Shown: positions 29,279-63,888, numbered from the stretch's first letter. The stretch: 64,000 nucleotides of DNA from an uncultured Bacillota bacterium (GCA_900551705.1 URWY01000004.1:15-64014); one strand, 5' to 3'. Notes: a model not told the origin generated them from the sequence alone. Made by a program: numbers and translations.

Positions 29279-30235
29279 TTACTTTCTTTTATTAAATGCA
29301 CTTAAATCTTGCAATGTTAAAGTCTTTTTATTAATTAATGCTAACAACTCACTTATTCTATCTAAATCATCTTTTGAATAGTAGTCAATATATATCCTAC
29401 CTTTGTTATCATTACCAATAGCAGACACTTTTGTGGCAAATATTTTTTGCATTTCATTAATCATATCTTTTAATTCAATGCTTTGTTCAGATTTTGGTCT
29501 TTCTTTTGAAGGGTGGTTAATGTTTTTAACTAACTTTTCGATATCTCTTACTGATAATTTTTTATTAACTGCAACAGTTGCGATCTTAATTTGTTCGATT
29601 GGATCGGTGAGTGCGACCAATATTTTAGCATGACCAGCAGATAATTTATTCGTTTCAATCATATCTACTACTTCATTTGGCAAAGTAAGCAATCTAACGG
29701 TATTTGCAATTACTGAACGGCTTTTACCAATTCGTTCTGATACCGCTTCTTGTGTTAACTTATATTCTTCCATTAATTGCTTGATTGCTTTTGCGGCTTC
29801 TATTGGATTTAAGTCTTCCCTTTGCAAGTTTTCAATAATCGATATTTCTTTAACTTGCTTTTCTGTAAATCTTCTAACATAAGCAGGGACGGTTTCAAGA
29901 CCAGCGATTTTTGCTGCACGCCAACGGCGTTCACCGGCAATAATCATGTATTTACCATCTTCGGCTTCATTTAAAACAATAGGTTGAATTATTCCATGAA
30001 CTTTAATTGATGACGCTAACTCATTTAAGGCTGTTTCATCAAAGTGTTTACGAGGTTGGTTTGGGTTAGGAACTATATCGTTGATATTTATTTCATTCAA
30101 ACCTTTAATTTCTTTTACAGTTGGATTTTGAGTTGCAGTCTGTTTAATTTCTTCTTGGTTATTTTCCAATTCATCTTCTTCATCATAAATTGATAATAGG
30201 GCATTTATACCTCTTCCGAGTCCTTTCTTAATCAT
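29279..30235 (-). CDS. parB: Chromosome partitioning protein ParB/Spo0J
   Basis: ParB box GERRWRAAK and HTH LTQEAVSERIGKSRSVIANTVRLL. Overlaps parA by 8 nt. Confidence 0.9.
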   Translation of the reverse strand: MIKKGLGRGINALLSIYDEEDELENNQEEIKQTATQNPTVKEIKGLNEININDIVPNPNQPRKHFDETALNELASSIKVHGIIQPIVLNEAEDGKYMIIAGERRWRAAKIAGLETVPAYVRRFTEKQVKEISIIENLQREDLNPIEAAKAIKQLMEEYKLTQEAVSERIGKSRSVIANTVRLLTLPNEVVDMIETNKLSAGHAKILVALTDPIEQIKIATVAVNKKLSVRDIEKLVKNINHPSKERPKSEQSIELKDMINEMQKIFATKVSAIGNDNKGRIYIDYYSKDDLDRISELLALINKKTLTLQDLSAFNKRK

Positions 30236-31049
30236 TGTTTTCTCCTTCGTCTATTTTAATTTTTGTTGTAGCGTTTTCATATTTCATGTTATTGCGCTTC
30301 AATATTTCTTCTGCTAATGCTAAGTATGCTTTTGCACCCTTTGATGAACTATCATACGCTCCAATAGGGACGCCATGACTTGGGGCTTCTGCAAGCCTTA
30401 CATTTCTAGGTATTGCGGTTGTGAAGACTTTTTTACCAAAGAAAGTTGTAATCTCGTTGCTTACTTGATTTATCAAATTGCTGCGAGAATCTTTCATTGT
30501 CAAAACAACACCTTCAACATCTAAATTTGGATTTAAATGTTTTTTAACCAATTTGATAGTATTCATAAGTTGAGTTAGCCCTTCAAGAGCATAGAACTCA
30601 CATTGAATTGGAATTACAATCGCATCAGAAGCGGTGAGAGCATTTACTGTCAACAAGCCCAAAGAAGGTGGGCAGTCGATTACGATAAAATCATAATTAT
30701 CACGGACTCTGTTAAGTCTATTTTTTACTATATGTTCTCTATTTGGCATTTGAACTAAATCAATTTCTGCTCCTGCTAAATCAACTGTGGCAGGTATTAC
30801 ATCTAAATTTTTGATTGCAGAATGCAAAATAACTTCTTCGATGTAAGCATCTCCATCAATTACATTATAAATTGTTTTAGTTGAAGAACTTTTATCTACC
30901 CCTAAGCCGCTGGTTGCATTTCCTTGTGGATCCATATCTAAAAGCAAAACTTTTTTGCCCATTGAAGCAAGGTATGCAGCGACATTTACGCAAGTTGTGG
31001 TTTTACCAACTCCGCCTTTTTGATTTGCAAATGAAAGTATTTTTCCCAT
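30228..31049 (-). CDS. parA: Chromosome partitioning ATPase ParA/Soj
   Basis: Deviant Walker A NQKGGVGKTTT and MDPQGNAT. Confidence 0.9.
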   Translation of the reverse strand: MGKILSFANQKGGVGKTTTCVNVAAYLASMGKKVLLLDMDPQGNATSGLGVDKSSSTKTIYNVIDGDAYIEEVILHSAIKNLDVIPATVDLAGAEIDLVQMPNREHIVKNRLNRVRDNYDFIVIDCPPSLGLLTVNALTASDAIVIPIQCEFYALEGLTQLMNTIKLVKKHLNPNLDVEGVVLTMKDSRSNLINQVSNEITTFFGKKVFTTAIPRNVRLAEAPSHGVPIGAYDSSSKGAKAYLALAEEILKRNNMKYENATTKIKIDEGENND

Positions 31050-31162
31050 TGTGTACCTCTTTAATTAATTTATATAATATATATAGTATATATTAACATA
31101 ATACATATATAAAAACAAGAATTTTTGAAAATTTTAATCAAAAAAATTGCATAAAATAATAA

Positions 31163-31190
31163 AAGGCGCTAAATTATTTTTTTGCGCCTT
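31163..31190 (-). terminator. Terminator after rsmG
   Basis: Stem AAGGCGC/GCGCCTT, with a T-rich run downstream on the minus strand. Overlaps the rsmG stop. Confidence 0.55.
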
Positions 31191-31884
31191 ATTTACTATT
31201 TTTTATTTGTTTGGTTGGTCTTGGGTATTTTTTAGGTGTTTCTTTTATCTTTTCTATAATTACTAATTTCCTAAAATTTTCGACAATATTATAATCAATA
31301 ACTTTTGAAATTTTGCCGCCTAGTTCGCAAATTATTTGTTTTGCTTCGTTTATTTCTTCTTCGCAATTCCCAGACTTATATGCTATAAATTGGCCGCCTA
31401 CTTTAACAAAAGGAAGACAATATTCGCTTAATACTTTTAGATTTGCAACCGCTCTGGCGGTGGTAATATCAAATTTTTCACGATAGTCATTAATTTTTGC
31501 AAAATCTTCCGCTCTGCCGTGCATTGCTTCAATATTTTTTAAATTTAGAGTTTGTATTGTATTATTTAAAAAGTTTATGCGTTTATTTAAACTATCTAAC
31601 AAAGTGAAGGAAAGGTCATCTCTAACTAATTTTAATGGAATTGAAGGAAATCCTGCGCCAGCGCCAATATCCAAAACTTTTGCGTTTAATGAAAAATATT
31701 TTTGTGGAAAAATACTATCATAAAAATGTTTTTCAACAACGCCATCTTCGTCAGTTATTGCCGTCAGATTGCAAATTTTATTGCCTTCTATAAGCAAATT
31801 ATAATACTTAACAAAATTATCCACAATTTGCTTTGTTGGTTGAATTTCTGACTTTAATAAAATTTGTTCAATTTTTTTTTCCAT
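31189..31884 (-). CDS. rsmG: 16S rRNA (guanine527-N7)-methyltransferase
   Basis: DIGAGAGFPSIPLK motif. Position between mnmG and parA. Confidence 0.9.
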   Translation of the reverse strand: MEKKIEQILLKSEIQPTKQIVDNFVKYYNLLIEGNKICNLTAITDEDGVVEKHFYDSIFPQKYFSLNAKVLDIGAGAGFPSIPLKLVRDDLSFTLLDSLNKRINFLNNTIQTLNLKNIEAMHGRAEDFAKINDYREKFDITTARAVANLKVLSEYCLPFVKVGGQFIAYKSGNCEEEINEAKQIICELGGKISKVIDYNIVENFRKLVIIEKIKETPKKYPRPTKQIKNSK

Positions 31885-31887
31885 GTT

Positions 31888-33765
31888 TTAACCTTTATAT
31901 GATTTTAGATAGATTGATAAAACTGTAATATCAGCAGGGGATACACCTGAAATTCTTGAAGCCATACCCAAAGTTTCTGGTCTGATTTTTGATAGTTTTT
32001 GCCTTGCTTCAATTCTTAAACTTTTTACTTTATCGTAGTCAATCTCTTCTGGTATTTTTGTTTGTTCTTGCTTTCTTAACTTTTCAATTTCATCATTCTG
32101 TTGGTTGATATATCCTTCGTATTTTACTTCGGTGTTAATAATGTCTAAGAACATTTCTTCATCGCCTTCAAAAATTGAAGGATAATGTTTTTTAATATCA
32201 AAAATAGTGATGTTATTTCTCTTTAATAAATCTTTAATTCTCATTGAACTATCTGGAATTGTTTCTCCACATTCATTTAATAAATTTACTAAAATTTCAT
32301 CTTTTTTTAATAAAATTGCTAATTTTTCGCGTATTTTTTGCAATTTTTCGCGTTTTTTTATAAATTTTTGATATTTTTCGTCAGTTACAAGACCAATAGT
32401 TCTTCCAATAGGTGTTAATCTTTCGTCCGCATTATCTTGCCTTAAAACAAGTCTAAACTCGGCTCTTGATGTCATCATTCTGTAAGGTTCGTTTGTTCCT
32501 TTTGTGATTAAATCGTCAATCAAAACTCCGATATAACTTTGCTCACGACCTAAAACAAGTGGCTCCTTATTATCCAATTTTTGGTTTGCGTTAATGCCAG
32601 CAATTATACCTTGCGCTGCGGCTTCTTCATAACCACTTGTGCCGTTGATTTGTCCAGCAAAGAAAAGTCCATCAATAAATTTGCTTTCAAGTGAAGATTT
32701 TAATGTTTGACTGTCGATTGCGTCGTATTCGATTGCGTAGGCATAACGCATTATTTGAGCATTTTCAAGTCCTTTAATTGAATGATAAAGTTGTTTTTGA
32801 ACATCAAATGGAAGTGATGTGCTACAACCTTGCACATATATTTCATTTGTGGAAAGTGCTTCTGGTTCTAAAAATAATTGGTGACGCTCTCTGTCTGGGA
32901 AACGAACAACCTTATCTTCGATTGAAGGGCAATATCTAGGACCAATACCATGAATTAAGCCAGAATACAAAGGTGCACGATGAATGTTATCTCTTATAAT
33001 CTTGTGAGTTGTTAGATTTGTGTATGTCACATAGCAAGGATAGTCATTTAAAATTTTGTCCGTATTATCAAACGAAAAATGTTGAATGTTTTTCTCTCCG
33101 CCCTGGATTTCAAGTCCTGAAAAATCTATTGTTCGAGAATTAATTCTTGCAGGTGTGCCGGTTTTAAATCTTCTAAGTTCATGACCTAATTTGATTAAAC
33201 TATCTGATAATTCTTCGGCGCGAGCGTAACCGTTTGGTCCGCTATCTTTCATGTAATTTCCGATAATGATTTGACTTTTAAGATAAACGCCAGTTGCGAC
33301 AACAACAACTTTTGCAGACAAATTTTCGCCAAGAGCGGTTCTAACTCCGACAATTTTGTTGTTTTCTGCATAAATTTCAACAATTTCTGCTTGTTTTATC
33401 GTGATATTTTCATTTTCTTCAAGAACTTTCTTCATTCTCTCGTGATATTTGTTTTTATCAACTTGAGCACGCAAACTATGAACAGCAGGCCCTTTGCCTT
33501 GATTTAACATTCTGAGTTGAAGCATTGTTGCATCTGCGTTTTTACCCATTTCGCCACCAAGAGCATCAATTTCGCAAACAAGATGTCCTTTTGCAGTTCC
33601 GCCGATTGAAGGATTGCATGCCAAAAAAGCGATAGCATCAAGGCTAATCGTTGTTAAACATGTTTTTTTTCCAAGGCGCGCAAGAGCGAGTGCTGCTTCG
33701 CAACCAGCATGACCAGCGCCAATGACAACTGCATCAAAATTATCGTCAAAATTAATTTTTTCCAT
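31888..33765 (-). CDS. mnmG: tRNA uridine 5-carboxymethylaminomethyl modification enzyme MnmG (GidA)
   Basis: FAD motif FDAVVIGAGHAGCEAALALARLG, 625 aa, conserved GidA blocks. Confidence 0.95.
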   Translation of the reverse strand: MEKINFDDNFDAVVIGAGHAGCEAALALARLGKKTCLTTISLDAIAFLACNPSIGGTAKGHLVCEIDALGGEMGKNADATMLQLRMLNQGKGPAVHSLRAQVDKNKYHERMKKVLEENENITIKQAEIVEIYAENNKIVGVRTALGENLSAKVVVVATGVYLKSQIIIGNYMKDSGPNGYARAEELSDSLIKLGHELRRFKTGTPARINSRTIDFSGLEIQGGEKNIQHFSFDNTDKILNDYPCYVTYTNLTTHKIIRDNIHRAPLYSGLIHGIGPRYCPSIEDKVVRFPDRERHQLFLEPEALSTNEIYVQGCSTSLPFDVQKQLYHSIKGLENAQIMRYAYAIEYDAIDSQTLKSSLESKFIDGLFFAGQINGTSGYEEAAAQGIIAGINANQKLDNKEPLVLGREQSYIGVLIDDLITKGTNEPYRMMTSRAEFRLVLRQDNADERLTPIGRTIGLVTDEKYQKFIKKREKLQKIREKLAILLKKDEILVNLLNECGETIPDSSMRIKDLLKRNNITIFDIKKHYPSIFEGDEEMFLDIINTEVKYEGYINQQNDEIEKLRKQEQTKIPEEIDYDKVKSLRIEARQKLSKIRPETLGMASRISGVSPADITVLSIYLKSYKG

Positions 33766-33771
33766 ATTTTA

Positions 33772-35103
33772 TTATTTCCCCAAACAGAACTTAGAAAATA
33801 CTAAGTCTATTATTTTTTCGTCTTCTGTTGTTCCTGAAATTTTTCCAAGTTCTTTCCAAACATCTTTTAATATAAAAGCTTCAATATCTAAATTAACTCT
33901 TTGATCATTCAAAGCGTTTTCAATTTTTTGTTTTGTATTTTGCAAAATAGAAAGATGTCTTTCATTTGTTAAAACAAGTTTTGAAAAATCTATTTTCCCT
34001 GAAATTGTTTTTTCAATAATTTGCTTTTTGATTTCGGAAATATTTTCGTTGTTTTTTGCGCATATTTCTATATAATCAAAATCAAATTTTTTATTTTTTA
34101 TATCGCTCTTATTTCCAACAATAATATGAAGACGATTTTTTAAGTTTTCAATCATTTCAATTTCATCTTGTTTTAATTTTCTAGATAAATCTAAAACAAG
34201 CAAAACGATGTCTGCATTTTTGATTTCTTGATTTGTTTTTTCAATGCCAATTTTTTCAACAACATCGTCACTTTCTCTTAAACCTGCTGTGTCTATTAAA
34301 TTAACAGTTACGCCATCAATAAAAATCTTTTCCTTGATTGTATCTCTCGTTGTGCCTTCAATGTTTGTTACAATAGCACGTTCTTCACCGAGCAAAGCAT
34401 TTAATAAACTTGATTTTCCAACATTAGTTTTTCCAACAATCGCAACATTAACGCCACTTTTTATTAAATTGGAATTTTTACTATTTTCTAAAATTTCATT
34501 AATTTCAAAATCAAGTTTCTTAAGCAAACCTTCACTTTTTTCAAAAAGTTGTTCTTCTTCAACATCGTCTGGATAATCTAAATTTGCTTCAATTTCAGCA
34601 AGTAAATCTGTTATTTTATTTTGCATTTCAACAACTTTTTCGGTCAGTTTTCCAGATTGTAAAATTTCTGCCGCTTTGAGTTGTGTGTCGCTTTCTGCAA
34701 GAATAAGTTCAGAAATTCCTTCTGCTTCGTCAAGAGAAATTTTACCATTTAAAAATGCGCGTTTTGAAAACTCGCCAGGTTCTGCAAGAGAGCATTTTGT
34801 AAGCAAACTTTTTAATATTTTTTGAGCGAGAAGTTGCCCGCCGTGAAATTGAAATTCAACAACATCTTCGCCAGTAAAAGAAAATGGTGCTTTGAAATAA
34901 ACCATCAAAACTTGGTCTTTGACTTCATCGGATATAAAATTGCCGAGATATAAATATCTTGGTTTGATATTTTCAAAATCTATATGTTTTGAAACAAAAA
35001 AATTTTTGGCAATGTTCAAACTGTCATTGCCACTTATTCTAATTATTGAAATTCCGCCTGTTCCAATTGGAGTTGCAAGCGCACATATTGTTTTTTCTTT
35101 CAT
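33772..35103 (-). CDS. mnmE: tRNA modification GTPase MnmE (TrmE)
   Basis: G-domain GKTNVGKSSLLNAL, DTAGLR, and C-terminal FCLGK. Confidence 0.95.
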   Translation of the reverse strand: MKEKTICALATPIGTGGISIIRISGNDSLNIAKNFFVSKHIDFENIKPRYLYLGNFISDEVKDQVLMVYFKAPFSFTGEDVVEFQFHGGQLLAQKILKSLLTKCSLAEPGEFSKRAFLNGKISLDEAEGISELILAESDTQLKAAEILQSGKLTEKVVEMQNKITDLLAEIEANLDYPDDVEEEQLFEKSEGLLKKLDFEINEILENSKNSNLIKSGVNVAIVGKTNVGKSSLLNALLGEERAIVTNIEGTTRDTIKEKIFIDGVTVNLIDTAGLRESDDVVEKIGIEKTNQEIKNADIVLLVLDLSRKLKQDEIEMIENLKNRLHIIVGNKSDIKNKKFDFDYIEICAKNNENISEIKKQIIEKTISGKIDFSKLVLTNERHLSILQNTKQKIENALNDQRVNLDIEAFILKDVWKELGKISGTTEDEKIIDLVFSKFCLGK

Positions 35104-35151
35104 TTCGCAAGTAGTATATCACAAAAATATTGTATTGCAATAATTAAATTA

Positions 35152-35883
35152 TTAATTTTCTAAAAGTCTTACTTTTTTAAGTTTAATAGAATCAATATTC
35201 ATATATGAGAGTCCTACACTTCGCATACCACCAACTTGGCTTGTCTCAATTTGTTTTTCGTCTGAGTCTAAAAGTTTTTCGCCACTGACAACAAATATAT
35301 CTTCATCGTTTGATTTTTCTGTTAATGTAATATTGAACAAAATTTCGTCTTTGATGTTTGAATAAAATGAAACTTGCAAAATATAATCGCCGGTTTTTTC
35401 AATCACTTTTGAATTCTCATTTGAAGTGTTTTCTTTATTTGAGTTTTCGCCAGTTTTTTGAGAGTGTCCAACCATTAAACCTTTTTCATATTTTCTAAAA
35501 GAAACAACAACTTGACTGAGTGGGTTGTTCTCTAAATTATTAATTACAAACGCCCAATCGAAACATTTATCTGTTTCAATTTCTGCTGGTTTAATTTCAA
35601 AAACAAGTTCAGATGTTAAGCCTCTATCCACCCAAACAGAATTCTTATTTTCTTTTCCAAAATAACAAACTGGTCCAATATTATCTTTTGATTTTATAAG
35701 AGATATTGTTTTGTCATTATTATCTTGAATTGTTCCAAAACTTGTAAAAGTGGAATTGTTGCCTTTTGAAAAATCATTTTCAAAAATAACAGGGCGCGAG
35801 TCCTTTTGCGAACACGCAGAAAAAATAACTGAAAATAATAACAACATACAAAAAAAAGCGAAAATAGTTTTAGTTTTAGACAT
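35152..35883 (-). CDS. Lipoprotein, function unknown
   Basis: Signal peptide with lipobox VIFSAC. Clean ORF. Confidence 0.7.
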   Translation of the reverse strand: MSKTKTIFAFFCMLLLFSVIFSACSQKDSRPVIFENDFSKGNNSTFTSFGTIQDNNDKTISLIKSKDNIGPVCYFGKENKNSVWVDRGLTSELVFEIKPAEIETDKCFDWAFVINNLENNPLSQVVVSFRKYEKGLMVGHSQKTGENSNKENTSNENSKVIEKTGDYILQVSFYSNIKDEILFNITLTEKSNDEDIFVVSGEKLLDSDEKQIETSQVGGMRSVGLSYMNIDSIKLKKVRLLEN

Positions 35884-35921
35884 AAAATTCTCCGCTTTAA
35901 TTATTTACTTTTATATGTAAT

Positions 35922-36377
35922 TTATTCAACTACGATTGAAATTGTTTTTGTTATGTATTCAAATTCGTCATAAATTTTAAGTGAATATGTTCCTGTTTTA
36001 TTAAACTTCAAATAAAAATTTGTAAATGCAAAATTAACAATTTCTATTTCGTTTGAATTTGATATTTCATAACGAATTGATTGCTTTTCATAAAGTTTAT
36101 CGCCTTCATAAATCTTGACACTAAAATTTACAACATTGTATTTATCATCACTGGAAAGTTTTAAAGTAATTTTATTGTTTTCAAAGTCATAATTTATATT
36201 TTCAAAATTGTTTTGTTTTTCAAATTTAAATTTTCTTGATGTTTCAATTGTTGTTTCAGAACTTGGTTTGCTTGAACTTTCAGACTTAGCAGGAGTGTCT
36301 TTTTTACAACCTGCAAAAATCATTGGAACAATAGACAAAGCAACAACTAACAGAAAACAAATCACAAACTTTTTCAT
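35922..36377 (-). CDS. Small lipoprotein, function unknown
   Basis: Start set at MKKFVICF (ATG 36377). Lipobox MIFAGC. Confidence 0.7.
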   Translation of the reverse strand: MKKFVICFLLVVALSIVPMIFAGCKKDTPAKSESSSKPSSETTIETSRKFKFEKQNNFENINYDFENNKITLKLSSDDKYNVVNFSVKIYEGDKLYEKQSIRYEISNSNEIEIVNFAFTNFYLKFNKTGTYSLKIYDEFEYITKTISIVVE

Positions 36378-36458
36378 ACTTACAAAGTATACTATTTTTT
36401 CAATTAAAAACAAACTAATTTCGACATAAAGCAACATTATAAAACAAGAAAATATAAT

Positions 36459-36487
36459 TTGACTTTATTTTATAAATAACATAAAAT
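36459..36487 (+). promoter_or_regulatory. sigma-A type promoter placing the TSS at or next to the ATG of 36494 (possible leaderless mRNA)
   Basis: TTGACT-17 nt-TAAAAT. The A of the ATG is 7 nt after the -10 element. No SD is present. Confidence 0.45.
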
Positions 36488-36493
36488 AGTCAC

Positions 36494-37177
36494 ATGACTA
36501 AGAAAAAAAGTTTGATTTTAATCGTTTTGTTGTTACTGCTTTCATTAGTTGGAATTGTAAGTTCCAACAATTTTGTTTGCTCAGCAGAATCTGAAACATA
36601 TCGGGTTTGCGTGACAGATTGCAATGTTTTTAAAGAGCCAAATTCGGCATTAGAAAATAACATTTTGGAAGTAAGAGAATACGGCTCAACAATAAAAATC
36701 AGTGCAATGGAAATCAACGATTTAAACGAAGGTTCAAATCTTAAATTTTATCCAGTTTTAGATAATGACGATTTTGTAATCGGATATGTTTTATGTAGTT
36801 CAGTTGTTAGTGATACAGAGCAAGAACTTTATGTAAAACTTCAACCAAACGCTAAACTAAATGCTGACAGTGAAATTTACAATCTTGTTGACGGCGAATA
36901 TCAAAAATTAAAAATCAATGGTCAAGAAATTACTTTAAGCAAAGACACAAAAATAAAACTGCTTGAAAAATATGATAAAAATAAAACATACTCACAAATA
37001 TCATTTTCTTACGAAAACGAAATTAGAACAGGGTATGTTTTAACAAAAAATATTCAAGTCAGCGGTTTTAATTATTACTTTTTAATTGCAATATTTTTAA
37101 TTGTTATAATTGCATCAACAGTGATACCTATTGTTGTTAAAAATTGGAAAAAGAACAAAAAATCAGCTGATAGATAA
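36494..37177 (+). CDS. Secreted protein with C-terminal TM anchor (possible SH3b-like domain)
   Basis: N-terminal signal peptide MTKKKSLILIVLLLLLSLVG, C-terminal hydrophobic segment then KNWKKNKK. 15-nt convergent overlap with veg. Confidence 0.7.
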   Translation: MTKKKSLILIVLLLLLSLVGIVSSNNFVCSAESETYRVCVTDCNVFKEPNSALENNILEVREYGSTIKISAMEINDLNEGSNLKFYPVLDNDDFVIGYVLCSSVVSDTEQELYVKLQPNAKLNADSEIYNLVDGEYQKLKINGQEITLSKDTKIKLLEKYDKNKTYSQISFSYENEIRTGYVLTKNIQVSGFNYYFLIAIFLIVIIASTVIPIVVKNWKKNKKSADR

Positions 37178-37405
37178 TATTTCCACATCTCCACATAAAA
37201 CATCAAAATAAGAAAATGTTTGTGTGTCTAATTGATTGATTTGGTCAACTTTAACTGTAAAAACACTCGGATAAATATTTTCAACTGTTGCCTGAAATCT
37301 ATCAATTTTTTTTCGTCCACGATTTATAGCAAGCGTGACATTAGCTCCTTTTAACGCTCTTATTTTATCTTTAACTTCGTTTAAACTCATTCCTAATTTT
37401 CTCAT
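37163..37405 (-). CDS. veg: Veg protein (biofilm/sporulation-associated small DNA-binding protein)
   Basis: ...NRGRKKIDRFQATVENIYPSVFTV... parallels B. subtilis Veg ([24 protein letters not shown]). Confidence 0.85.
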   Translation of the reverse strand: MRKLGMSLNEVKDKIRALKGANVTLAINRGRKKIDRFQATVENIYPSVFTVKVDQINQLDTQTFSYFDVLCGDVEILSIS

Positions 37406-37449
37406 AACAAAAATTCTCCTTTGAAAATTATTGTCATTAAAAAATGATT

Positions 37450-38241
37450 TTAAACAATAAACATACTAACTATTGAAAAGATAAAAAGGTATATAGAGAA
37501 ATAATAGTATTTTGCTTTTTCAACAATTTTAAGCATAAATTTTATAGAAAATATTCCAACAAGAAATGCCGAAACAAAAGCAACAAGAAGTGGAACAATT
37601 CCAATTTGACTCAGAGTTTGACTTGATGAAGTAAAAATAATTTCATATAGCATTGATGCAATTATAATAGGAATACTCATTAAAAACGAAAATTTAGCAC
37701 TCTCTTTTCTGCTTTCTCCAAGAAGTAACCCAGTGCAAATTGTTGAACCAGACCTTGAAATTCCTGGAATTGTTGCAAGCCCTTGTGCTATTCCCATGCC
37801 GAGTGAGGAAGTCCATTTTACAGTGCCGTTAAAGTCATTTTCATAACTTCTATCTTCAACTTTTTTGTTAGACAAAAGATAGGTTATCAATAATAAAATC
37901 GCCGTCATCATAAAACAAAATGGAAGCAAACTTGCGTTTTCAAATATATCTCCAAGTGCAAACTTAAACAAAAATACTATTGCGACTGTTGGTATTGTTG
38001 CGATATACAAATTGCACGCTTGTTTTGAAAATGGGTGTTTAATAAGTTGCCAAATATCTTTATAAAAAACAATAATAACTGCAAGCAAAGTGGCAAGATG
38101 TAAGATTATGCTTAGCAATAAAAAATCGCCCTCAACTCCGAAAATTTCATTAAGTAAAAATAAATGACCACTGCTTGACACTGGCAAAAATTCTGTTAAA
38201 CCTTGAACAATTCCTAAGATTAATGCAACTAAAATGCTCAT
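37450..38241 (-). CDS. uppP: Undecaprenyl-diphosphate phosphatase
   Basis: N-terminal GLTEFLPVSSSGHL and PGISRSGSTI motifs. Multi-TM. Confidence 0.9.
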   Translation of the reverse strand: MSILVALILGIVQGLTEFLPVSSSGHLFLLNEIFGVEGDFLLLSIILHLATLLAVIIVFYKDIWQLIKHPFSKQACNLYIATIPTVAIVFLFKFALGDIFENASLLPFCFMMTAILLLITYLLSNKKVEDRSYENDFNGTVKWTSSLGMGIAQGLATIPGISRSGSTICTGLLLGESRKESAKFSFLMSIPIIIASMLYEIIFTSSSQTLSQIGIVPLLVAFVSAFLVGIFSIKFMLKIVEKAKYYYFSIYLFIFSIVSMFIV

Positions 38242-38342
38242 TTCTCTTGCACAATTTTCCTTTTTGTAATATACCTATTTCAGAATATATGTTATGCAAT
38301 TTGTTTTAAATATATTTCAAATTAACAAACTAGGAGAAAAAT

Positions 38343-39434
38343 ATGAAAATCGGAATTGTTGGTTTACCTAATGTTGGCAAAAGCACTCTGTTTAATGCAA
38401 TCACAAGCGCTGGTGCAGAAAGTGCAAATTATCCATTTTGCACTATTGAACCAAATGTTGGCGTTGTTGATGTTAAAGATGAAAGATTAAACAAACTAGC
38501 TGAATTTTACAACAGCAAAAAAATCATTCCAGCAAGTATTGAATTTGTTGATATTGCGGGGCTTGTTGAAGGTGCAAGCAAAGGCGAAGGTCTTGGTAAT
38601 AAATTTTTAAGTCACATTCGCGAAGTTGATGCTATTGTTCATGTTGTTAGATGTTATGATAACGAAAAAATTATCCATGTTTCTGGTTCTATTGATCCAA
38701 AACGCGATATTGAAGTTATCAATCTTGAATTGATTTTGGCTGACCTTGAAAGCGTTTCAAAAAGATATGAAAGACTTGTTAAACTTGCAAAAGTTGGAGA
38801 AAAGGGTGCGGAAGAAGAAGTTGAAGTTCTTGGGAAAATCAAAACGGCACTTGAAAACGGAAAAAGTGCAAGGAGTGTTGAACTCACAAAAGAACAAAAG
38901 AAAATTTGCGACAGTTTCTTCCTTCTTTCATCAAAACCTATTATTTATGTTGCGAATGTTTCAGAAAACGACATTGGAAAAGAAGATAACAAGTATGTAA
39001 AACAAGTTAAGGAAATAGCAGCAGAAGAGGGCGCAGAAGTTATAGTTTTGTGCGCAAAAATTGAAGAAGAACTTTCCGAATTATCACCAGAAGAACAAGA
39101 AATGTTCAAAGATGAACTTGGAATTAAGGACAGCGGTCTTGACAAACTTGTTGTTGCAAGTTATTCGCTTTTAGGCCTTATGAGTTTCTTAACAGCTGGC
39201 GAAAAAGAAGTTCGTGCTTGGACAATTAAAAAGGGAAGCAAAGCACCACAAGCGGCTGGTAAAATTCATTCAGACTTTGAAAAAGGTTTTATCAAGGCAG
39301 AAGTTGTAAGTTATGACGACCTTATGGCGGCTGGTTCTTATCTTAATGCAAGAGAAAAAGGCAAGGTTAGAATTGAAGGCAAAGATTATATTGTTCAAGA
39401 AGGCGACATCATGCTTTTCAGATTTAATGTGTAA
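38343..39434 (+). CDS. ychF: Redox-regulated ATPase YchF
   Basis: MKIGIVGLPNVGKSTLFNA, TGS-like C-terminus, 363 aa. Confidence 0.95.
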   Translation: MKIGIVGLPNVGKSTLFNAITSAGAESANYPFCTIEPNVGVVDVKDERLNKLAEFYNSKKIIPASIEFVDIAGLVEGASKGEGLGNKFLSHIREVDAIVHVVRCYDNEKIIHVSGSIDPKRDIEVINLELILADLESVSKRYERLVKLAKVGEKGAEEEVEVLGKIKTALENGKSARSVELTKEQKKICDSFFLLSSKPIIYVANVSENDIGKEDNKYVKQVKEIAAEEGAEVIVLCAKIEEELSELSPEEQEMFKDELGIKDSGLDKLVVASYSLLGLMSFLTAGEKEVRAWTIKKGSKAPQAAGKIHSDFEKGFIKAEVVSYDDLMAAGSYLNAREKGKVRIEGKDYIVQEGDIMLFRFNV

Positions 39435-39561
39435 TTGTTTATAACTTATTTGAGTTGTGCACAACTAATTCACAATTTTACAAAAACAATTTTATACAAT
39501 ATATTGTGTCAAATTTTGAAAAATTCTAAATTTTAAATCGATATTTTGTGGCGTAAAAAAG

Positions 39562-39570
39562 TTATACACA
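39562..39570 (+). promoter_or_regulatory. DnaA-box-like 9-mer
   Basis: TTATACACA fits TTATNCACA. It is the only such match I see in the dnaN upstream region. Weaker 2-mismatch relatives are at 39456..39464 and 39466..39474. Confidence 0.3.
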
Positions 39571-39662
39571 TTTCAACAGCCCTTATTAAGAATAATCTTA
39601 TTTAAATAATAAATAAAAATATGTTTTGGCGGCAAATTTTAAAAACTTGTCGCTTTATTTAT

Positions 39663-39691
39663 TTGATATTTTTTTTGATATATGTTATAAT
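39663..39691 (+). promoter_or_regulatory. sigma-A promoter of dnaN (extended -10)
   Basis: TTGATA-17 nt-TATAAT with TG at -15/-14, about 27 nt upstream of the dnaN ATG. Confidence 0.55.
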
Positions 39692-39718
39692 AACTATATA
39701 TTATATAGGAGAAAAAGT

Positions 39719-40822
39719 ATGCAAGTAGTATGTGATGGATTAGATTTATCAGAAGCAGTTATTAAAGTTTCAAGGGCTATTGCTTATAGAACAACAAATC
39801 CAATTTTGGAAGGTATTAAAATTGTTGCAGATAACGATTATGTTGTTGTAAGTGCAACAGACCAAGAACTTTCTATTGAAAAGAAAATTAAAGCAGAAGT
39901 TAAAGTTGAAGGTGAAACTGTTGTTCCAGGCAGATTTTTTACTGAATTTGTTAGAAAGTTAACAAAAGAAAAAATTGAACTTTCAACAAACGAAAAAAAT
40001 CAACTCAAAATAAAATATACAGATAGTGAAGGTGTTGTTCAATGTTACAATTCTCTTGAATATCCAAGTTTTAATAAAGTGGATTCAAGCGAATATTTTG
40101 CTATGACAGAAACAGAACTTAAAAACCTTATTCAAAAAACAATTTTTGCAGTTGCAACAGACGATACAAGGCCAATTTTAAAAGGTGTTTTGTTTGAAAT
40201 TTCAAGCGAACAAATCACAGCAGTTGCTCTTGATGGTTATAGGCTTGCTCTTTGCAAAAATCCAATTAAATTTGCAAACATTCAAGCAAATGTTATTGTT
40301 CCAGCAAAAAGTTTATCAGAAATTAGCAAACTTCTTGGCGATAGCGATGAAATTATCAATATCTATATTCAAAAGAACTATTTGATGGTTGATTTAAACG
40401 AAACAAAAGTTACAACAAGATTATTAGACGGCGATTTCTTAAATTATAAACAAATCATTCCTCAAAATTTTGAAACAACAATCGTTATCAACAAAAATCA
40501 ATTTGAAGACGCGTTGGATAGAGCATCTCTTCTTTCAAAAATCGGTCAAAGCAATCTTGTTAAATTTGATATTAAAGAAAATAGTTTGGTTATAACATCA
40601 AATTCAGATATCGGAACTATTTGTGAAAATGTTAATGTTTCATTCAAAGGTAAAGATTTAAAAATTGCTTTCAATGCAAGATATTTCACAGAGTGCGCAA
40701 GAAACATTACTGATGAATTTATTAAAATTTCATTCAACAATTCAACAAATCCATGTATTATCAATCCTATTGATTCAGATAAATACACATTCTTAATTTT
40801 GCCAGTTAGAATGTTGAATTAA
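39719..40822 (+). CDS. dnaN: DNA polymerase III beta sliding clamp
   Basis: Start set at ATG 39719 (MQVVCDGLDL) behind TAGGAGAAAAAG. Typical clamp blocks (LEGIKI, TDGYRLA-like LDGYRLA, ILPVRM). The ORF-track start at 39626 is a spurious extension. Confidence 0.9.
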   Translation: MQVVCDGLDLSEAVIKVSRAIAYRTTNPILEGIKIVADNDYVVVSATDQELSIEKKIKAEVKVEGETVVPGRFFTEFVRKLTKEKIELSTNEKNQLKIKYTDSEGVVQCYNSLEYPSFNKVDSSEYFAMTETELKNLIQKTIFAVATDDTRPILKGVLFEISSEQITAVALDGYRLALCKNPIKFANIQANVIVPAKSLSEISKLLGDSDEIINIYIQKNYLMVDLNETKVTTRLLDGDFLNYKQIIPQNFETTIVINKNQFEDALDRASLLSKIGQSNLVKFDIKENSLVITSNSDIGTICENVNVSFKGKDLKIAFNARYFTECARNITDEFIKISFNNSTNPCIINPIDSDKYTFLILPVRMLN

Positions 40823-61613: not shown

Positions 61614-61792
61614 AGATCCTCCAATAAAACATTAATATTATATCATAAGTTTTTATTTATTTTCAAACAGAAACAAATATAAAAAAGCATTCGACAAAAA
61701 AATATTTATTCCTAACGCGCTCTCAAGATTAGCGGGTCGTGCTACCGCGCATATACGCGACGATTTGCAAGTTAAGTTGCAATATAACACAC

Positions 61793-61834
61793 GCAGAAAA
61801 AAAAGAGAGAATGCTAACGCACTCTCTTTTTTTT
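61793..61834. terminator. Bidirectional terminator flanking tRNA-mimic element copy 1
   Basis: Stem AAGAGAG/CTCTCTT with an inner TGC/GCA stem. A8 upstream and T8 downstream, so it works on either strand. Confidence 0.6.
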
Positions 61835-61836
61835 CT

Positions 61837-61957
61837 TGGCGCAGAGAGGGGGATTTGCTTCGCTTTGAAAGTTGTTCTTCGCGGGTCGATGCACGCTTTC
61901 ATGCCGGCACTAAAAAACTTGCCAATGGCAACTGTTTTTACGCTTAGTTCAAATCCT
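61837..61957 (-). repeat. tRNA-3'-end-mimic element, copy 1 (associated with tRNA-Ser)
   Basis: About 120 nt. In minus-strand sense it ends ...CAAATCCCCCTCTCTGCGCCA: the last 11 nt are identical, and 17 of the last 20 match, the 3' end of the adjacent tRNA-Ser including CCA. It starts AGGATTTG, the complement of its own CAAATCC. The core aligns with copy 2. Confidence 0.55.
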
Positions 61958-62097
61958 AATAACAATACATTTCCAACAAAATTTTTCTTCGTGGAAACAA
62001 CTTCGCACGAGAGTACCGACCGAAATTGCTTAGCCAATTTCGCGTTTGGTCGGTAAAAAGGAAATTGCGTGCGAAAGAGCGATGTATTTTTTTTTGC
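61958..62097 (-). ncRNA. GC-rich, highly structured spacer between tRNA-Ser and element copy 1 (candidate ncRNA; strand uncertain)
   Basis: Nested perfect stems: TTCGCACG/CGTGCGAA, TACCGACC/GGTCGGTA, CGAAATTG/CAATTTCG, plus TTTCCA/TGGAAA. GC content is visibly above the surroundings. Overlapping ORFs on both strands look like artefacts. Confidence 0.35.
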
Positions 62098-62122
62098 AAA
62101 AAAAAATCGAGCAAAAGCCCGA
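62098..62122 (-). terminator. Terminator of tRNA-Ser
   Basis: Minus strand: TCGGGC-TTTT-GCTCGA (one G-U pair, which would be an A-C mismatch on the plus strand) followed by T9. Confidence 0.6.
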
Positions 62123-62135
62123 CAATTTCTCTTTT

Positions 62136-62225
62136 TGGCGCAGAGAAGAGGATTCGAACCTCCGGAACCTGTTACAGTTCGCACGCTTTCCAAGCGTGTG
62201 CCTTAAACCGCTCGACCATCTCTGC
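62136..62225 (-). tRNA. tRNA-Ser (anticodon GGA), CCA encoded
   Basis: Cloverleaf by hand: acceptor GCAGAGA/TCTCTGC, anticodon stem CACGC/GCGTG with loop TTGGAAA, long variable arm, T-arm GGAGGTTCGAATCCTCT, 3' GCCA. Confidence 0.92.
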
Positions 62226-62319: not shown

Positions 62320-63297
62320 TTATATATGATTATATTTTTCATCTCTTAGTTTGTATGTTTTAGTTAATGAGTTACACATCATTGAGTTTGCACTTTTAAT
62401 TTTTGTTGCGACTTCATTATAACTTTTTGTGAAGTCAACTGGCACTGATATATTTCTTCTTTGACAAATTAATATGTCGCCATTTGCATTGATTTCGGTA
62501 TACATATTTCCGCAAGCGCCGTGAGTGCAAATATCATCACAAAACCTAATTTCAAAGTTGTCATCAAAGTATAAATCAGTTCGCCCTTTGTGCGGATTGT
62601 TTATAGTTTTTGTTGCCAAGGTTACATATTTGGTAAAAATATAATAATACCAATTTGATTCTGCTTGATTTGTTTTGAAGTCGTCTGCTATATCATTTCT
62701 TAGATTTAAGTTTCTACTATCAGTATCGTTTAACTTAATTATTTTAATTCTATTAATTCCACTATCTCTTGTAAACTGAATAAGTTTGTCTATATCTTTA
62801 TAATTGAATTTTGTTACTACGGTGTTTAACACAACTCCCATAATCTTGCTTGCATATTTTATGTTTTCAAGAATTTGATCTAAACTTGCTTTATTTGTCA
62901 ACACATTTGGTTTAGATTGTTTTGTAAAAATGGAATCAATTCCAATTTTTAGAGAATAGACGCCATGCGCTTTTAATTCGTCTATTTTCTCTTTTGTCAA
63001 TAATGTTGCATTTGTGTTTAACCTTATTTTGCAATTAAGTTTTTTTAATTCATCAATTATTTTAATTAAGTCCTTATGAAGCGTTGGTTCGCCGCCAGTA
63101 ATATTGATAAAATCAACCTTAACATTATTTTTAATAATAAATTCAACCATTTGTTTTATGTATTCATAACTTAAAAATTGTCTTTTACAACCAATTTTTT
63201 GACCTTCATTATGACAATAAAAACAAGATAAATTGCAAGCATTTGTTAAGGCTATTCTTAATTTGTTTTGATTAAATAATTCTACTTTTTCTGACAT
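62320..63297 (-). CDS. Radical SAM protein, MoaA/NirJ-like
   Basis: Start set at MSEKVELF (ATG 63297) behind GGGAG. CNLSCFYCHNEG (CxxxCxxC), GGEPTLH, and a C-terminal Cys cluster FCDDICTHGACGN...NGDILIC resembling the MoaA auxiliary cluster region. Confidence 0.85.
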   Translation of the reverse strand: MSEKVELFNQNKLRIALTNACNLSCFYCHNEGQKIGCKRQFLSYEYIKQMVEFIIKNNVKVDFINITGGEPTLHKDLIKIIDELKKLNCKIRLNTNATLLTKEKIDELKAHGVYSLKIGIDSIFTKQSKPNVLTNKASLDQILENIKYASKIMGVVLNTVVTKFNYKDIDKLIQFTRDSGINRIKIIKLNDTDSRNLNLRNDIADDFKTNQAESNWYYYIFTKYVTLATKTINNPHKGRTDLYFDDNFEIRFCDDICTHGACGNMYTEINANGDILICQRRNISVPVDFTKSYNEVATKIKSANSMMCNSLTKTYKLRDEKYNHI

Positions 63298-63631
63298 ATA
63301 ATTAACTCCCATTTTGTGATGTTAAGTATAAGTCGATTAGTTATATTAATCAAATACATATCTATTATAAGAGTTATAATTCGTAGTTATATAAGAATGA
63401 AAATCATAGCAAATTTTTAATTACATTAAACAATACAATCTTAACTTAGTTTTTTAATGAAAAAAGAACAAAGAAGAAATAATAAAACTGTATAATAATT
63501 TATATTATATAGAAGAGTAAAAATCGCACCCAAAATATACCCAAAAAAATTACGCAAAAGTGCAAAATTTTAACAAAAATTCAATTTTTCAAGAAAATAA
63601 AAAAAGTGCTATATGCGCCTATTTTAGGGTG

Positions 63632-63756
63632 TGGTGCGGATAAAGGGACTCGCTCCGCTTTGAGAGTATTGCGTTGCAGGTCGATGCTCGCTATCACGCC
63701 GGCGCTAAAAAACTTGCCACTGGCAACTTTTTCTTAACGCTTAGTTCGAGTCCTTT
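63632..63756 (-). repeat. tRNA-3'-end-mimic element, copy 2 (associated with tRNA-Leu)
   Basis: In minus-strand sense it ends CGAGTCCCTTTATCCGCACCA, identical over 21 nt to the 3' end of the adjacent tRNA-Leu including CCA. It starts AAAGGACTCG, the complement of its own 3' stem. The core aligns with copy 1. Confidence 0.55.
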
Positions 63757-63785: not shown

Positions 63786-63805
63786 AAAAAAACACCCAAT
63801 GGGTG
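63786..63805 (-). terminator. Terminator of tRNA-Leu
   Basis: Minus strand: CACCC-ATT-GGGTG immediately after CCA, followed by T7. Confidence 0.55.
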
Positions 63806-63888
63806 TGGTGCGGATAAAGGGACTCGAACCCCCACGGTCGCCCACCAGATCCTAAGTCTGGCGCGTCTACCAATTTCGCCATATCCGC
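63806..63888 (-). tRNA. tRNA-Leu (anticodon UAG), CCA encoded
   Basis: Acceptor GCGGATA/TATCCGC, anticodon stem CCAGA/TCTGG with loop CTTAGGA, long variable arm, T-loop TTCGAGT, 3' ACCA. Confidence 0.92.

What the first reader, a model, noticed from the sequence alone, without database searches (positions are those of the whole stretch)
63632..63756. Conserved ~120-nt element downstream of tRNA-Leu that ends in an exact 21-nt copy of that tRNA's 3' end (T-loop to CCA)
On the minus strand, tRNA-Leu(UAG) (63806..63888) has its own hairpin plus T7 terminator. Then comes an element whose 3' end, CGAGTCCCTTTATCCGCACCA, is identical to the tRNA 3' end, including discriminator and CCA. The element's 5' end, AAAGGACTCG, is the inverted complement of the T-arm part, so the ends can pair as a stem or act as terminal inverted repeats. 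The interior aligns by eye with the element next to tRNA-Ser (61837..61957), with roughly three quarters of positions identical. Shared plus-strand blocks are CGCTTTGA, GGTCGATGC, GCCGGC, CTAAAAAACTTGCCA, TGGCAACT and ACGCTTAGTTC. It contains two small palindromes, CGCCGGCG and TTGCCA-g-TGGCAA followed by a T-run. The terminal repeats are not fixed: they track the neighbouring tRNA (GGACTCG/CGAGTCC here, GGATTTG/CAAATCC at tRNA-Ser). A classical MITE with conserved TIRs would not do that. Two readings fit. It could be a tiny non-autonomous integrative element or att relic that targets tRNA T-loops and regenerates the tRNA end. Or it could be a structured RNA that displays a tRNA acceptor-3' mimic. 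I do not recognise it as any named RNA or repeat family.
Basis: seen in the sequence. Interest (0 to 1): 0.8.

Follow-up and report, generated by a model that had tools for sequence, protein, structure and literature searches.

The report
Tiny non-coding insertion cassettes at tRNA ends
The ~120-nt element is real; it is the conserved end-piece of very small gene-less DNA cassettes inserted at the 3' ends of tRNA genes in a group of uncultured gut Firmicutes, each leaving a duplicated 21-nt tRNA tail, and it looks like mobile DNA rather than a functional RNA.

Summary
The copy of the tRNA-Leu 3' end is 26 nt long. The 5' arm is the reverse complement of the tRNA T-loop and 3' T-stem. A paralogue lies 3' of tRNA-Ser. 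I found 12 full copies, 3 half copies and one cut by a contig end in related gut metagenome assemblies. They sit next to tRNA-Leu(UAG), Leu(CAA), Ser(GCU), Ser(GGA), His, Thr(CGU) and Arg(CCU). Where intact, the identity with the tRNA is always C56-A76.

Two filled/empty allele pairs show that a ~280-bp non-coding unit (terminator T, hairpin module S, element E) is an insertion. It is bracketed by that 21-bp direct repeat, the signature of a T-loop-class tRNA attachment site.

E has no Rfam, phage or plasmid match and no conserved promoter. It evolves about neutrally between close strains, yet is ~95% identical across species whose synonymous sites are near saturation. A related core lies in the opposite orientation next to tRNA-Glu and tRNA-His.

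Best reading: a miniature, non-autonomous integrative cassette family. No recombinase was found. The co-varying inverted arm is unexplained by classical att sites.

The parts
63806..63888 (-). tRNA-Leu(UAG), intact, CCA encoded. It is the target gene of the Leu cassette.
   Evidence: ARAGORN; Rfam tRNA 60 bits
63792..63806 (-). Terminator-like hairpin ACACCCATTGGGTGT plus T7, directly after tRNA-Leu.
63801..63826 (.). Direct repeat copy 1: tRNA-Leu C56-A76 plus 5 nt of trailer. Candidate attL core.
   Evidence: the repeat finder D1, 26 nt, 100%
63627..63652 (.). Direct repeat copy 2: the 3' arm of E_Leu plus 5 nt. Candidate attR, i.e. the displaced tRNA 3' fragment.
   Evidence: the same 21-nt C56-A76 boundary is found at six further loci and by eye at L044
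63632..63756 (-). Element E, Leu copy, full length (covariance model R1, 141.9 bits).
63744..63756 (-). 5' arm AAAGGACTCGAAC, the reverse complement of tRNA G53-U66 with one C missing.
   Evidence: inverted repeats I1 and I2
63679..63743 (-). Conserved core of E. It contains TAAGCG, an A-run, the hairpin TTGCCAGTGGCAA (63714-63726), a T-run, the palindrome CGCCGGCG (63697-63704) and GCATCGACC. Identity among paralogues is about 93-95%.
   Evidence: alignment A2
63663..63678 (-). Hypervariable 16-nt segment. It is unrelated between copies and does not match the cognate tRNA or the flanks.
63653..63662 (-). Conserved right end CAAAGCGGAG, abutting C56 of the tRNA-derived arm.
62136..62225 (-). 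tRNA-Ser(GGA), intact.
62087..62135 (-). Module T: a terminator (GTCGGGC..GCTCGAT plus T-run) that starts right after the CCA. It is the left end of the T-S-E cassette.
   Evidence: the same module follows the CCA in L044 and L046
61987..62087 (-). Module S: a ~100-nt long hairpin (TTCGCACG/CGTGCGAA; TACCGACC/GGTCGGTA). It is conserved at 89-98% in other loci.
   Evidence: I11, I13
61837..61959 (-). Element E, Ser copy (R1, 137.2 bits). 5' arm AGGATTTG; 3' arm CAAATCCCCCTCTCTGCGCCA.
61806..61827 (-). Terminator-like hairpin directly after the CCA of the Ser copy.
61711..61796 (-). Module B' (..AATCGTCGC..GCGCGGTAGCACGAC..), another member of the mosaic. It is tandemly duplicated in the orthologous locus L004.

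Best explanation
E is the conserved end module of a family of miniature (about 170-470 bp), gene-less, non-autonomous cassettes. They occupy the T-loop-class attachment site of single-copy tRNA genes in a clade of uncultured, spore-forming gut Firmicutes (Christensenellales-like). Shown: the cassette is an insertion. A filled allele has an intact tRNA, a terminator, optional modules (S, A, B), then E, then a second copy of tRNA C56-A76, followed by the DNA that directly follows the tRNA in empty alleles. Inferred, by analogy with genomic islands in tRNA genes: the upstream tRNA 3' end and its terminator are cassette-borne and regenerate the gene, and the downstream 21-nt copy is the displaced original fragment (attR). 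Inferred: a tyrosine integrase of the T-loop class, encoded elsewhere, acts in trans. Which tRNA is used would be set by the 21-bp core carried by the cassette, as with phage Ms6 attP. Also inferred: E is the P-arm of the recombination site. Its palindromes (TTGCCA-N-TGGCAA, CGCCGGCG) and three direct AAGCG motifs would be protein-binding sites. Its 5' arm would form, with the core, an inverted repeat or hairpin needed for recombination. After insertion the copies decay neutrally, duplicate in tandem through the repeats, and get truncated.
For: (1) Empty versus filled alleles at tRNA-His. L059 has tRNA-His followed directly by GCACTTGCGACGG.... L046 has tRNA-His, then T-S-E ending ...GAAGCGGCG, then CGAGACCCTTTATTCACCCCA, then GCACTTGCGACGG.... 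(2) Empty versus filled alleles at tRNA-Leu(UAG). L045 has the tRNA followed by AGAAAAAAAAGAGAG.... L044 and L047 have T-S-E plus the 21-nt copy before that same sequence. All four loci encode the identical 64-aa neighbour protein P0038. (3) Where intact, identity with the tRNA is exactly C56-A76: seven copies at five tRNA loci in the table (Leu-UAG in window and L004, Ser-GCU, His in L045 and L046, Thr, Leu-CAA), and by eye in L044. (4) The arms follow seven different tRNAs. The left arm co-varies with a G-to-A change in the tRNA-His T-loop in L050. (5) The mobile-DNA signature is present. The conserved core is ~95% identical between species whose typA third-codon positions are only 64% identical. 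Between close strains, however, the E_Leu interior is 91.2% identical against 94% for the flanking non-coding DNA. (6) Half copies occur at His and Arg. Tandem units occur in which the repeat runs 32-44 exact nt, and much further with a few mismatches, past the CCA. (7) In L011 the CCA of E(Thr) is followed after 2 nt by tRNA-Gly, as expected if a Thr-Gly tRNA pair was split by the insertion. (8) Literature: islands split a tRNA gene, restore it, and leave a displaced fragment that marks the endpoint (PMC4383910). Ms6 uses a 26-bp attP core spanning the T-loop to the 3' end, and editing that core retargets integration to other tRNA genes (PMC1762012).
Against: No integrase, transposase or reverse transcriptase lies in the 64-kb window, and none is adjacent to E in the other loci. 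The nearest is a large serine recombinase in L047, about 180 nt upstream of E(Leu), but it belongs to a different element with its own junction at ATCCGCACCA. In the other loci neighbours were judged only from ORF lists and N-terminal sequences. No autonomous relative was found in IMG/VR, phage or plasmid collections. The left ends of the cassettes are not conserved between subfamilies. Classical att sites do not explain an inverted copy of the core ~100 bp away that follows the target. Moving to a new tRNA needs a new 21-bp core and a new 5' arm at the same time, and no mechanism for that is shown. RecA-mediated unequal crossing-over between the repeats could produce the same filled and empty alleles without any site-specific recombinase.
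Confidence: 0.55

Rival explanations
1. The elements are recombinase-independent mosaic repeats, like BIMEs. On this view E, S, T, A and B are interspersed intergenic repeat modules that pile up in the safe space 3' of tRNA genes. The tRNA-tail copies would arise by template switching or microhomology-mediated tandem duplication between the pseudo-T-arm end of E (GCGGNG-CGA) and the T-loop. They would be kept identical by gene conversion. The 5' arm would be kept complementary by quasi-palindrome template-switch correction. Alleles would spread by homologous recombination.
For: Duplications start at a fixed point (C56) but end at variable points: 21, 23, 26 and 52 nt, and in the His and Leu tandem units across whole modules. 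Modules are shuffled, duplicated and fused between strains: a 137-column indel separates window and L004, L007 carries an E/B hybrid, and an E of the Ser(GCU) type lies next to tRNA-Gln in L012. No recombinase was found. Snap-back palindromes CGAAC-NN-GTTCG sit at type-2 junctions.
Against: The same precise T55|C56 junction recurs independently at seven tRNAs and in two subfamilies at tRNA-Leu(UAG). Cores are ~95% identical across species with saturated synonymous sites, which needs either transfer or strong constraint. The cassette supplies a terminator directly after the CCA, as integrative elements do.
Confidence: 0.2
2. E is a structured small RNA on the tRNA strand. A closing stem (5' arm with 3' arm) would present a single-stranded tRNA acceptor-3' mimic ending in CCA. 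This could act as a decoy or substrate for tRNA-binding enzymes, and its 3' end would be made by the tRNA-processing machinery.
For: P1 keeps pairing through changes on both sides at two positions. G-U pairs in P2 and P3 work only on the tRNA strand. The hairpin with loop AGT keeps pairing through compensatory stem changes between type 1 and type 2 (TTGCC/GGCAA, CGCCC/GGGCG, CGTCC/GGACG). A terminator or a tRNA gene follows the CCA in most copies. The copy in L011 has an extended -10 promoter just upstream.
Against: No Rfam family matches, even at E-value <= 10. The folding z-scores are only -1.97 and -0.22. Sequence upstream of the 5' arm is not conserved and shows no shared promoter. Divergence between close strains is neutral-like. 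Half copies persist. The homologous core is inverted relative to the CCA-bearing arm in type-2 copies. No 5' acceptor strand is present. The P1 covariation is a by-product of both arms copying the same tRNA.
Confidence: 0.12
3. E is a guide-specified recombination module. The 5' arm would be a programmable guide that selects the tRNA T-loop by base pairing, either in a folded single-stranded DNA site (like integron attC or CTX-phage attP) or as RNA (like bridge or seek RNAs). The 3' arm would simply be target-derived flank.
For: The 5' arm follows the target at every locus and differs between targets by only 1-3 nt (GGGACTCG, GGGTCTCG, GGAATCG, GGATTTG). Two subfamilies independently carry Leu-matched arms. 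The arm includes AAC, which complements G53-U55 of the tRNA but not E's own 3' side. One base is bulged in the Leu and Arg stems. The architecture is conserved scaffold plus variable ends.
Against: No cognate recombinase was found and there is no transcript evidence. The two arms cover the same target segment rather than adjacent halves as in bridge RNAs. The attC consensus (RYYYAAC/GTTRRRY) is not met. Several copies have imperfect arms (Thr, His).
Confidence: 0.1

Closest known systems
Genomic islands and prophages integrated in tRNA genes, T-loop sublocation class (Williams 2002, from my own knowledge; Islander database PMC4383910; mycobacteriophage Ms6 attP, PMC1762012)
   Same: The direct repeat is the tRNA 3' part, starting in the T-loop and running to or past the CCA. 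The tRNA stays intact. A displaced fragment marks the far end. Empty alleles exist. Single-copy tRNAs (Leu, Ser, Arg, Thr, His) are used. For Ms6, target choice is set by the attP core.
   Different: The whole insert is 170-470 bp and has no gene at all, let alone an integrase. One conserved arm region serves at least seven different tRNAs. An inverted copy of the core ~100 bp inside the element follows the target.
CIMEs (cis-mobilizable elements), i.e. att-flanked remnants of ICEs that lack recombination and transfer genes (reviewed in PMC5704250; listed in ICEberg 2.0, PMC6323972)
   Same: They are flanked by att-type direct repeats, have no integrase, form tandem arrays consistent with accretion, and presumably depend on a helper in trans.
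   Different: As I recall, described CIMEs are much larger and traceable to a parent ICE. Here no parent is known and the content is only terminators and hairpin modules.
Integron attC sites / Vibrio cholerae repeats, and the folded attP of CTX phage (from my own knowledge)
   Same: They are ~120-bp sites at the 3' end of each cassette, with imperfect inverted arms whose sequence varies while pairing is kept, and with a bulged base. Cassettes stack in tandem next to a primary site.
   Different: The R''/R' consensus is absent. No IntI or Xer link is seen. Only 7-10 bp of the arms pair. The arm sequence follows the target rather than the cassette.
Bacterial interspersed mosaic elements (REP/BIME, ERIC, Correia; from my own knowledge)
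   Same: Short non-coding modules combine in variable order in intergenic regions. They carry hairpins and terminators, are highly conserved between species, and are polymorphic between strains.
   Different: The modules here are restricted to the 3' side of tRNA genes and are bounded by copies of the tRNA tail. No RAYT-like gene is seen. There are no fixed terminal inverted repeats and no short target-site duplication.

Membership tests
tRNA-gene integrative element (T-loop class att site) | A displaced 3' fragment of the target tRNA, starting in the T-loop, lies at the far end as a direct repeat of the intact gene's 3' end. | tested here: met
   26-nt repeat in the window. An exact C56-A76 block in seven copies at five tRNA loci, and by eye in L044.
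tRNA-gene integrative element (T-loop class att site) | Related genomes carry the uninterrupted (empty) site. | tested here: met
   L059 versus L046 for tRNA-His. L045 versus L044/L047 for tRNA-Leu.
tRNA-gene integrative element (T-loop class att site) | An integrase gene lies inside the element, usually next to the tRNA. | tested here: not met
   The inserts are 170-470 bp of non-coding DNA. No recombinase was found in the 64-kb window. In the other loci none sits next to E apart from the unrelated serine recombinase in L047.
tRNA-gene integrative element (T-loop class att site) | Excision to a circle and re-integration by a site-specific recombinase. | not testable with these tools
   This needs read-level junction searches or experiments.
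MITE (miniature inverted-repeat transposable element) | Conserved terminal inverted repeats shared by all copies. | tested here: not met
   The arms differ between copies and follow the tRNA. The left and right ends of the T-S-E unit are unrelated.
MITE (miniature inverted-repeat transposable element) | A short target-site duplication of fixed length (2-14 bp). | tested here: not met
   The duplication is 21 bp or more and its outer end varies.
Integron attC site | R''/R' boxes RYYYAAC...GTTRRRY and a nearby intI/attI platform. | tested here: not met
   The left arm ends in CTCGAAC, but the right side reads G(A/C)GCGAG, not GTTRRRY. No integrase was found.
Known structured RNA family (Rfam 15) | A covariance-model match at or near the gathering score. 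| tested here: not met
   Only the tRNAs and the 23S fragment score. Nothing overlaps E or S, even at E-value <= 10.
Functional small RNA gene (generic) | Purifying selection relative to neighbouring non-coding DNA, and a fixed orientation with its own promoter. | tested here: not met
   The interior is 91.2% identical against 94% for the flanks. The core is inverted in type-2 copies. No shared promoter is seen.
CIME (att-flanked element without mobility genes) | Flanked by attL/attR-type repeats and devoid of integrase and transfer genes. | tested here: met
CIME (att-flanked element without mobility genes) | Derived from, and mobilised by, an identifiable ICE or IME with the same att sites. 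| tested here: inconclusive
   No parent was found in the held loci or in the IMG/VR, phage or plasmid collections. Whole genomes of the clade could not be scanned.

The most novel reading that the evidence does not exclude
E is a self-contained, retargetable recombination site. On this reading its 5' arm specifies by base pairing which tRNA T-loop is used, either as a folded single strand of DNA that mimics the target duplex or as a guide RNA. A few point changes would then move a gene-less cassette from one tRNA to another. That would be a new, programmable mode of site-specific insertion, related in logic to attC or CTX folded sites or to bridge RNAs, but aimed at the universal T-loop.
Probability: 0.1. 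Interest if true: 0.9.

Novelty: new variant of a known kind. Interest (0 to 1): 0.58.

Why it matters
tRNA genes are the classic landing pads for kilobase-sized islands that carry their own integrase. Here the same att-site signature brackets cassettes of a few hundred bases with no genes. One conserved end module is reused at seven or more different tRNAs, and an internal inverted arm changes with the target. If the cassettes are mobilised in trans, they would be, as far as I know, among the smallest integrative elements described. They would also point to a T-loop recombinase whose specificity is set by short, easily edited DNA, which is of interest for programmable insertion. At the least, they show that partial tRNA tails in metagenome-assembled genomes need not mark decayed prophages. 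They also show that such repeats break and scramble assemblies.

Tried and rejected
1. Rfam was searched at the gathering threshold and at E-value <= 10. Nothing overlaps E or S.
2. Phage and plasmid collections gave no match by blastn.
3. IMG/VR was scanned with four patterns. All hits were chance matches and none scored with model R1.
4. I asked whether the hypervariable 16-nt segment is a second guide. It has no cognate-specific match to the tRNA body or to 600-nt flanks, so this was rejected.
5. I asked whether E is a tRNA-like gene, a permuted tRNA or a tmRNA-like RNA. ARAGORN and Rfam see nothing and no 5' acceptor strand is present, so this was rejected.
6. I asked whether it is a retroelement primer-binding site or a cDNA copy of mature tRNA. 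The repeat runs past the CCA into trailer and whole modules, and no reverse transcriptase is present, so this was rejected.
7. I considered a TnpB/Cas12-style scaffold plus 3' guide with GTT as an adjacent motif. It is attractive on paper, but there is no effector gene, and the core occurs in both orientations relative to the putative guide. It was kept only inside the low-probability guide reading.
8. Orthologous loci anchored on the radical-SAM gene were not syntenic beyond close strains.
9. Covariance model R1 found no diverged extra copies in the window or the loci. It also misses type-2 copies.
10. Simple inversion between the arms does not convert type 1 into type 2, because the junctions differ.

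Full report
**Observation**

The window carries tRNA-Leu(UAG) at 63806-63888 and tRNA-Ser(GGA) at 62136-62225, both on the minus strand. Downstream of tRNA-Leu, after a hairpin plus T7, lies the reported element at 63632-63756.

- Its 3' end repeats the tRNA 3' end exactly. The repeat is 26 nt (63627-63652 = 63801-63826): C56-A76 plus five trailer bases.
- Its 5' arm (63744-63756) is 13 nt and 92% complementary to the tRNA's own T-loop and 3' T-stem. It is 10 nt and 90% complementary to the element's own 3' arm.
- The second copy (61837-61959) aligns over its whole length.
- Conserved blocks occur exactly twice in 64 kb, against about zero expected.
- For the Ser copy, the match of the 3' arm to the adjacent tRNA-Ser(GGA) is only 18 of 21 positions.

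**Relatives**

One scan of genome contigs and one of metagenome contigs, using the hairpin pattern, retrieved copies only from uncultured gut Firmicutes assemblies. Anchoring on a small protein next to tRNA-His gave more loci. One relative of that protein carries the name Christensenellales.

A covariance model (R1) scores 12 distinct full copies, three half copies and one copy cut by a contig end. They lie 3' of tRNA-Leu(UAG), Leu(CAA), Ser(GCU), Ser(GGA), His, Thr(CGU) and Arg(CCU).

- Where the 3' arm is intact, identity with the tRNA is always exactly C56-A76.
- The 5' arm is the reverse complement of G53 to about N63-66 of the same tRNA.
- In L050 the tRNA-His T-loop reads TTCGAAA instead of TTCGAGA, and the arm changes with it (GGGTTTCG).
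- One exception is L012, where an E with Ser(GCU)-type arms lies 3' of tRNA-Gln. This could be a rearrangement or an assembly chimera.

**Anatomy**

Alignment A2 shows the following parts, in order:
- the variable 5' arm;
- a ~65-nt core that is 93-95% identical among paralogues (GAACTAAGCG, A-run, hairpin TTGCCAGTGGCAA, T-run, palindrome CGCCGGCG, GTGAAAGCGAGCATCGACC);
- a 16-nt hypervariable stretch;
- CAAAGCGG(A/C)G;
- the tRNA-derived 3' arm.

The motif AAGCG occurs two or three times per copy, always in direct orientation. The hypervariable stretch matches neither the tRNA nor the flanks.

E is one module of a mosaic. Other modules are a terminator T that starts right after the CCA, a ~100-nt long hairpin S, and further modules A and B/B'. 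They occur in variable order, and in the held sequences only downstream of tRNAs.

**E is part of an insertion**

Four loci that encode the identical neighbour protein P0038 differ by presence or absence of the cassette.

- At tRNA-His, L059 reads tRNA-His followed directly by GCACTTGCGACGG.... L046 reads tRNA-His, then T-S-E ending ...GAAGCGGCG, then CGAGACCCTTTATTCACCCCA, then GCACTTGCGACGG....
- At tRNA-Leu(UAG), L045 has the tRNA followed by AGAAAAAAAAGAGAG.... L044 and L047 have T-S-E plus the 21-nt copy in front of that same sequence.
- In L011 the CCA of E(Thr) is followed after two bases by tRNA-Gly.

This is the pattern described for islands in tRNA genes: the gene is split, the element restores it, and a displaced fragment marks the far end (PMC4383910). 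The block starts in the T-loop, as for phage Ms6. Ms6 has a 26-bp attP core spanning the T-loop to the 3' end, and editing that core retargets integration to other tRNA genes (PMC1762012).

**DNA or RNA?**

Several results argue against a functional RNA.
- Rfam has no match.
- Folding z-scores are unremarkable.
- Sequence upstream of the 5' arm is not conserved.
- Between the window and its close relative L004, the E_Leu interior is 91.2% identical. Flanking non-coding DNA is 94% identical and coding DNA 95-98%. No constraint is visible.

Yet the core is ~95% identical between species whose typA genes are 86% identical, with third-codon positions only 64% identical. Young copies from a conserved source, followed by neutral decay, is the usual picture for mobile DNA. 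Half copies and tandem units fit this too.

A second element type lies next to tRNA-Glu (L003, L010) and tRNA-His (L050). It has the same tRNA-matched arms, but its interior aligns to E only in reverse orientation (score 67.3 against 47.6 +/- 5.1 for shuffles, 0 of 500 shuffles as high). The collinear matches are CTAAGCG, a CCAGTGG hairpin with compensatory stem changes, GGCGTGA(A/T)AGC and GCGGTGCGA. An RNA defined by a CCA tail would not tolerate that inversion.

In both orientations the right end of E abuts CGA of the palindromic T-loop core T|CGA.

**What is missing**

No recombinase, transposase or reverse transcriptase lies in the window, which holds housekeeping, sporulation and replication-related genes such as parAB, gidAB, mnmE and dnaN. 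None is adjacent to E in the other loci. There, neighbours were judged only from ORF lists and N-terminal sequences.

A large serine recombinase and a Rep-bearing element are integrated in tRNA-Leu(UAG) in L044, L046 and L047. They have different junctions, at the acceptor stem and the anticodon loop respectively. Phage, plasmid and IMG/VR searches were negative.

The inverted 5' arm is not a feature of classical att sites. How the arm and the core change together when a new tRNA is colonised is unknown.

**Verdict**

The best explanation (confidence 0.55) is a family of miniature, gene-less, non-autonomous integrative cassettes using the T-loop-class att site of tRNA genes, with E as the conserved recombination-site arm.

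The rivals are:
- recombinase-independent mosaic repeats shaped by template switching and gene conversion (0.2);
- a structured RNA (0.12);
- a guide-specified recombination module (0.1), which is the most novel reading still open.

I rate it a new variant of a known kind, of moderate to high interest.

Noticed in passing
window 61987-62087 (-); also L004 3429-3529, L009 615-703, L012 11248-11334, L013 ~2800-2890, L007 609-662: Module S is a ~100-nt long hairpin with an 8-bp outer stem, an 8-bp middle stem (TACCGACC/GGTCGGTA), a conserved AAACGC internal loop and a variable tip. It is 89-98% identical across diverged species. L007 shows a compensatory change (CGAAATTG/CAATTTCG to CAAAATTG/CAATTTTG). 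There is no Rfam match. It occurs with or without E.
   Followed up: partly
L050 1706-1872; L003 1860-2032; L010 2510-2680: A type-2 element lies 3' of tRNA-His and tRNA-Glu(UUC). It has tRNA-matched arms, a ~150-nt interior homologous to E only in reverse orientation, and snap-back palindromes CGAAC-NN-GTTCG at one junction. In L003 the direct repeat is 52 nt (tRNA C61-A76 plus the whole terminator). The covariance model for E misses these copies.
   Followed up: partly
L044 1-2300; L046 176-1700; L047 1-2345; L045 1440-1522: tRNA-Leu(UAG) is a hotspot for two further, unrelated elements within one species. One bears a Rep gene (REP_ORF2-G2P) and leaves a tRNA fragment from the anticodon loop to the CCA. 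The other bears a large serine recombinase, whose gene runs up to ...TACCTCA|ATCCGCACCA, so only the last 10 nt of the tRNA remain to its right. L045 is the empty allele.
   Followed up: partly
window 61614-61836 versus L004 3680-3990: The B' module plus its terminator is present once in the window and as a tandem duplicate in the close relative L004 (a 137-column indel). The mosaic changes on strain timescales.
   Followed up: partly
L013 2588-2683 and 3047-3143; L007 385-480; L009 ~385-460; L059 ~3694-3790: Module A starts right after the CCA. It has inverted repeats AGCACTTGCG...CGCAAGTGC enclosing back-to-back terminator hairpins (an A-run and a T-run between them). It looks like a small insertion in its own right.
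   Followed up: no
L007 704-817 and 560-640: The half copy of E next to tRNA-Arg continues into the right half of module B. B and E share a middle segment (TAGC..GCG.G.AA...CATCGAC), so B may be a diverged relative of E.
   Followed up: no
window 62320-63312 (-): A radical-SAM protein (PF04055 with a weak Fer4_12 hit; named MoaA-like or GTP 3',8-cyclase by one source) sits between the two tRNA/E loci. Close homologues are rare, and in more distant relatives the gene lies next to a LysR regulator instead of tRNAs.
   Followed up: partly
L001 (Logan contig, 1908 bp), positions 1-92 and 1765-1887: This short-read contig begins and ends inside E copies. The repeats evidently break assemblies. They may also cause chimeric joins, for example the Ser-type E next to tRNA-Gln in UMGS808.
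   Followed up: no
L002 minus-strand start (positions ~1655-1700): The contig end carries sequence that, from memory, looks like a Nextera transposase adapter (...GTCTCGTGGGCTCGGAGATGTGTATAAGAGACAG). If so, it is untrimmed adapter in a public MAG.
   Followed up: no
window 1-516 and 29279-40822: The window starts inside a 23S rRNA gene. It contains parB, parA, gidB, gidA, mnmE, ychF and dnaN, together with spoIVA and spo0A. The source is therefore the chromosome of a spore-forming Firmicute, probably near the replication origin.
   Followed up: no
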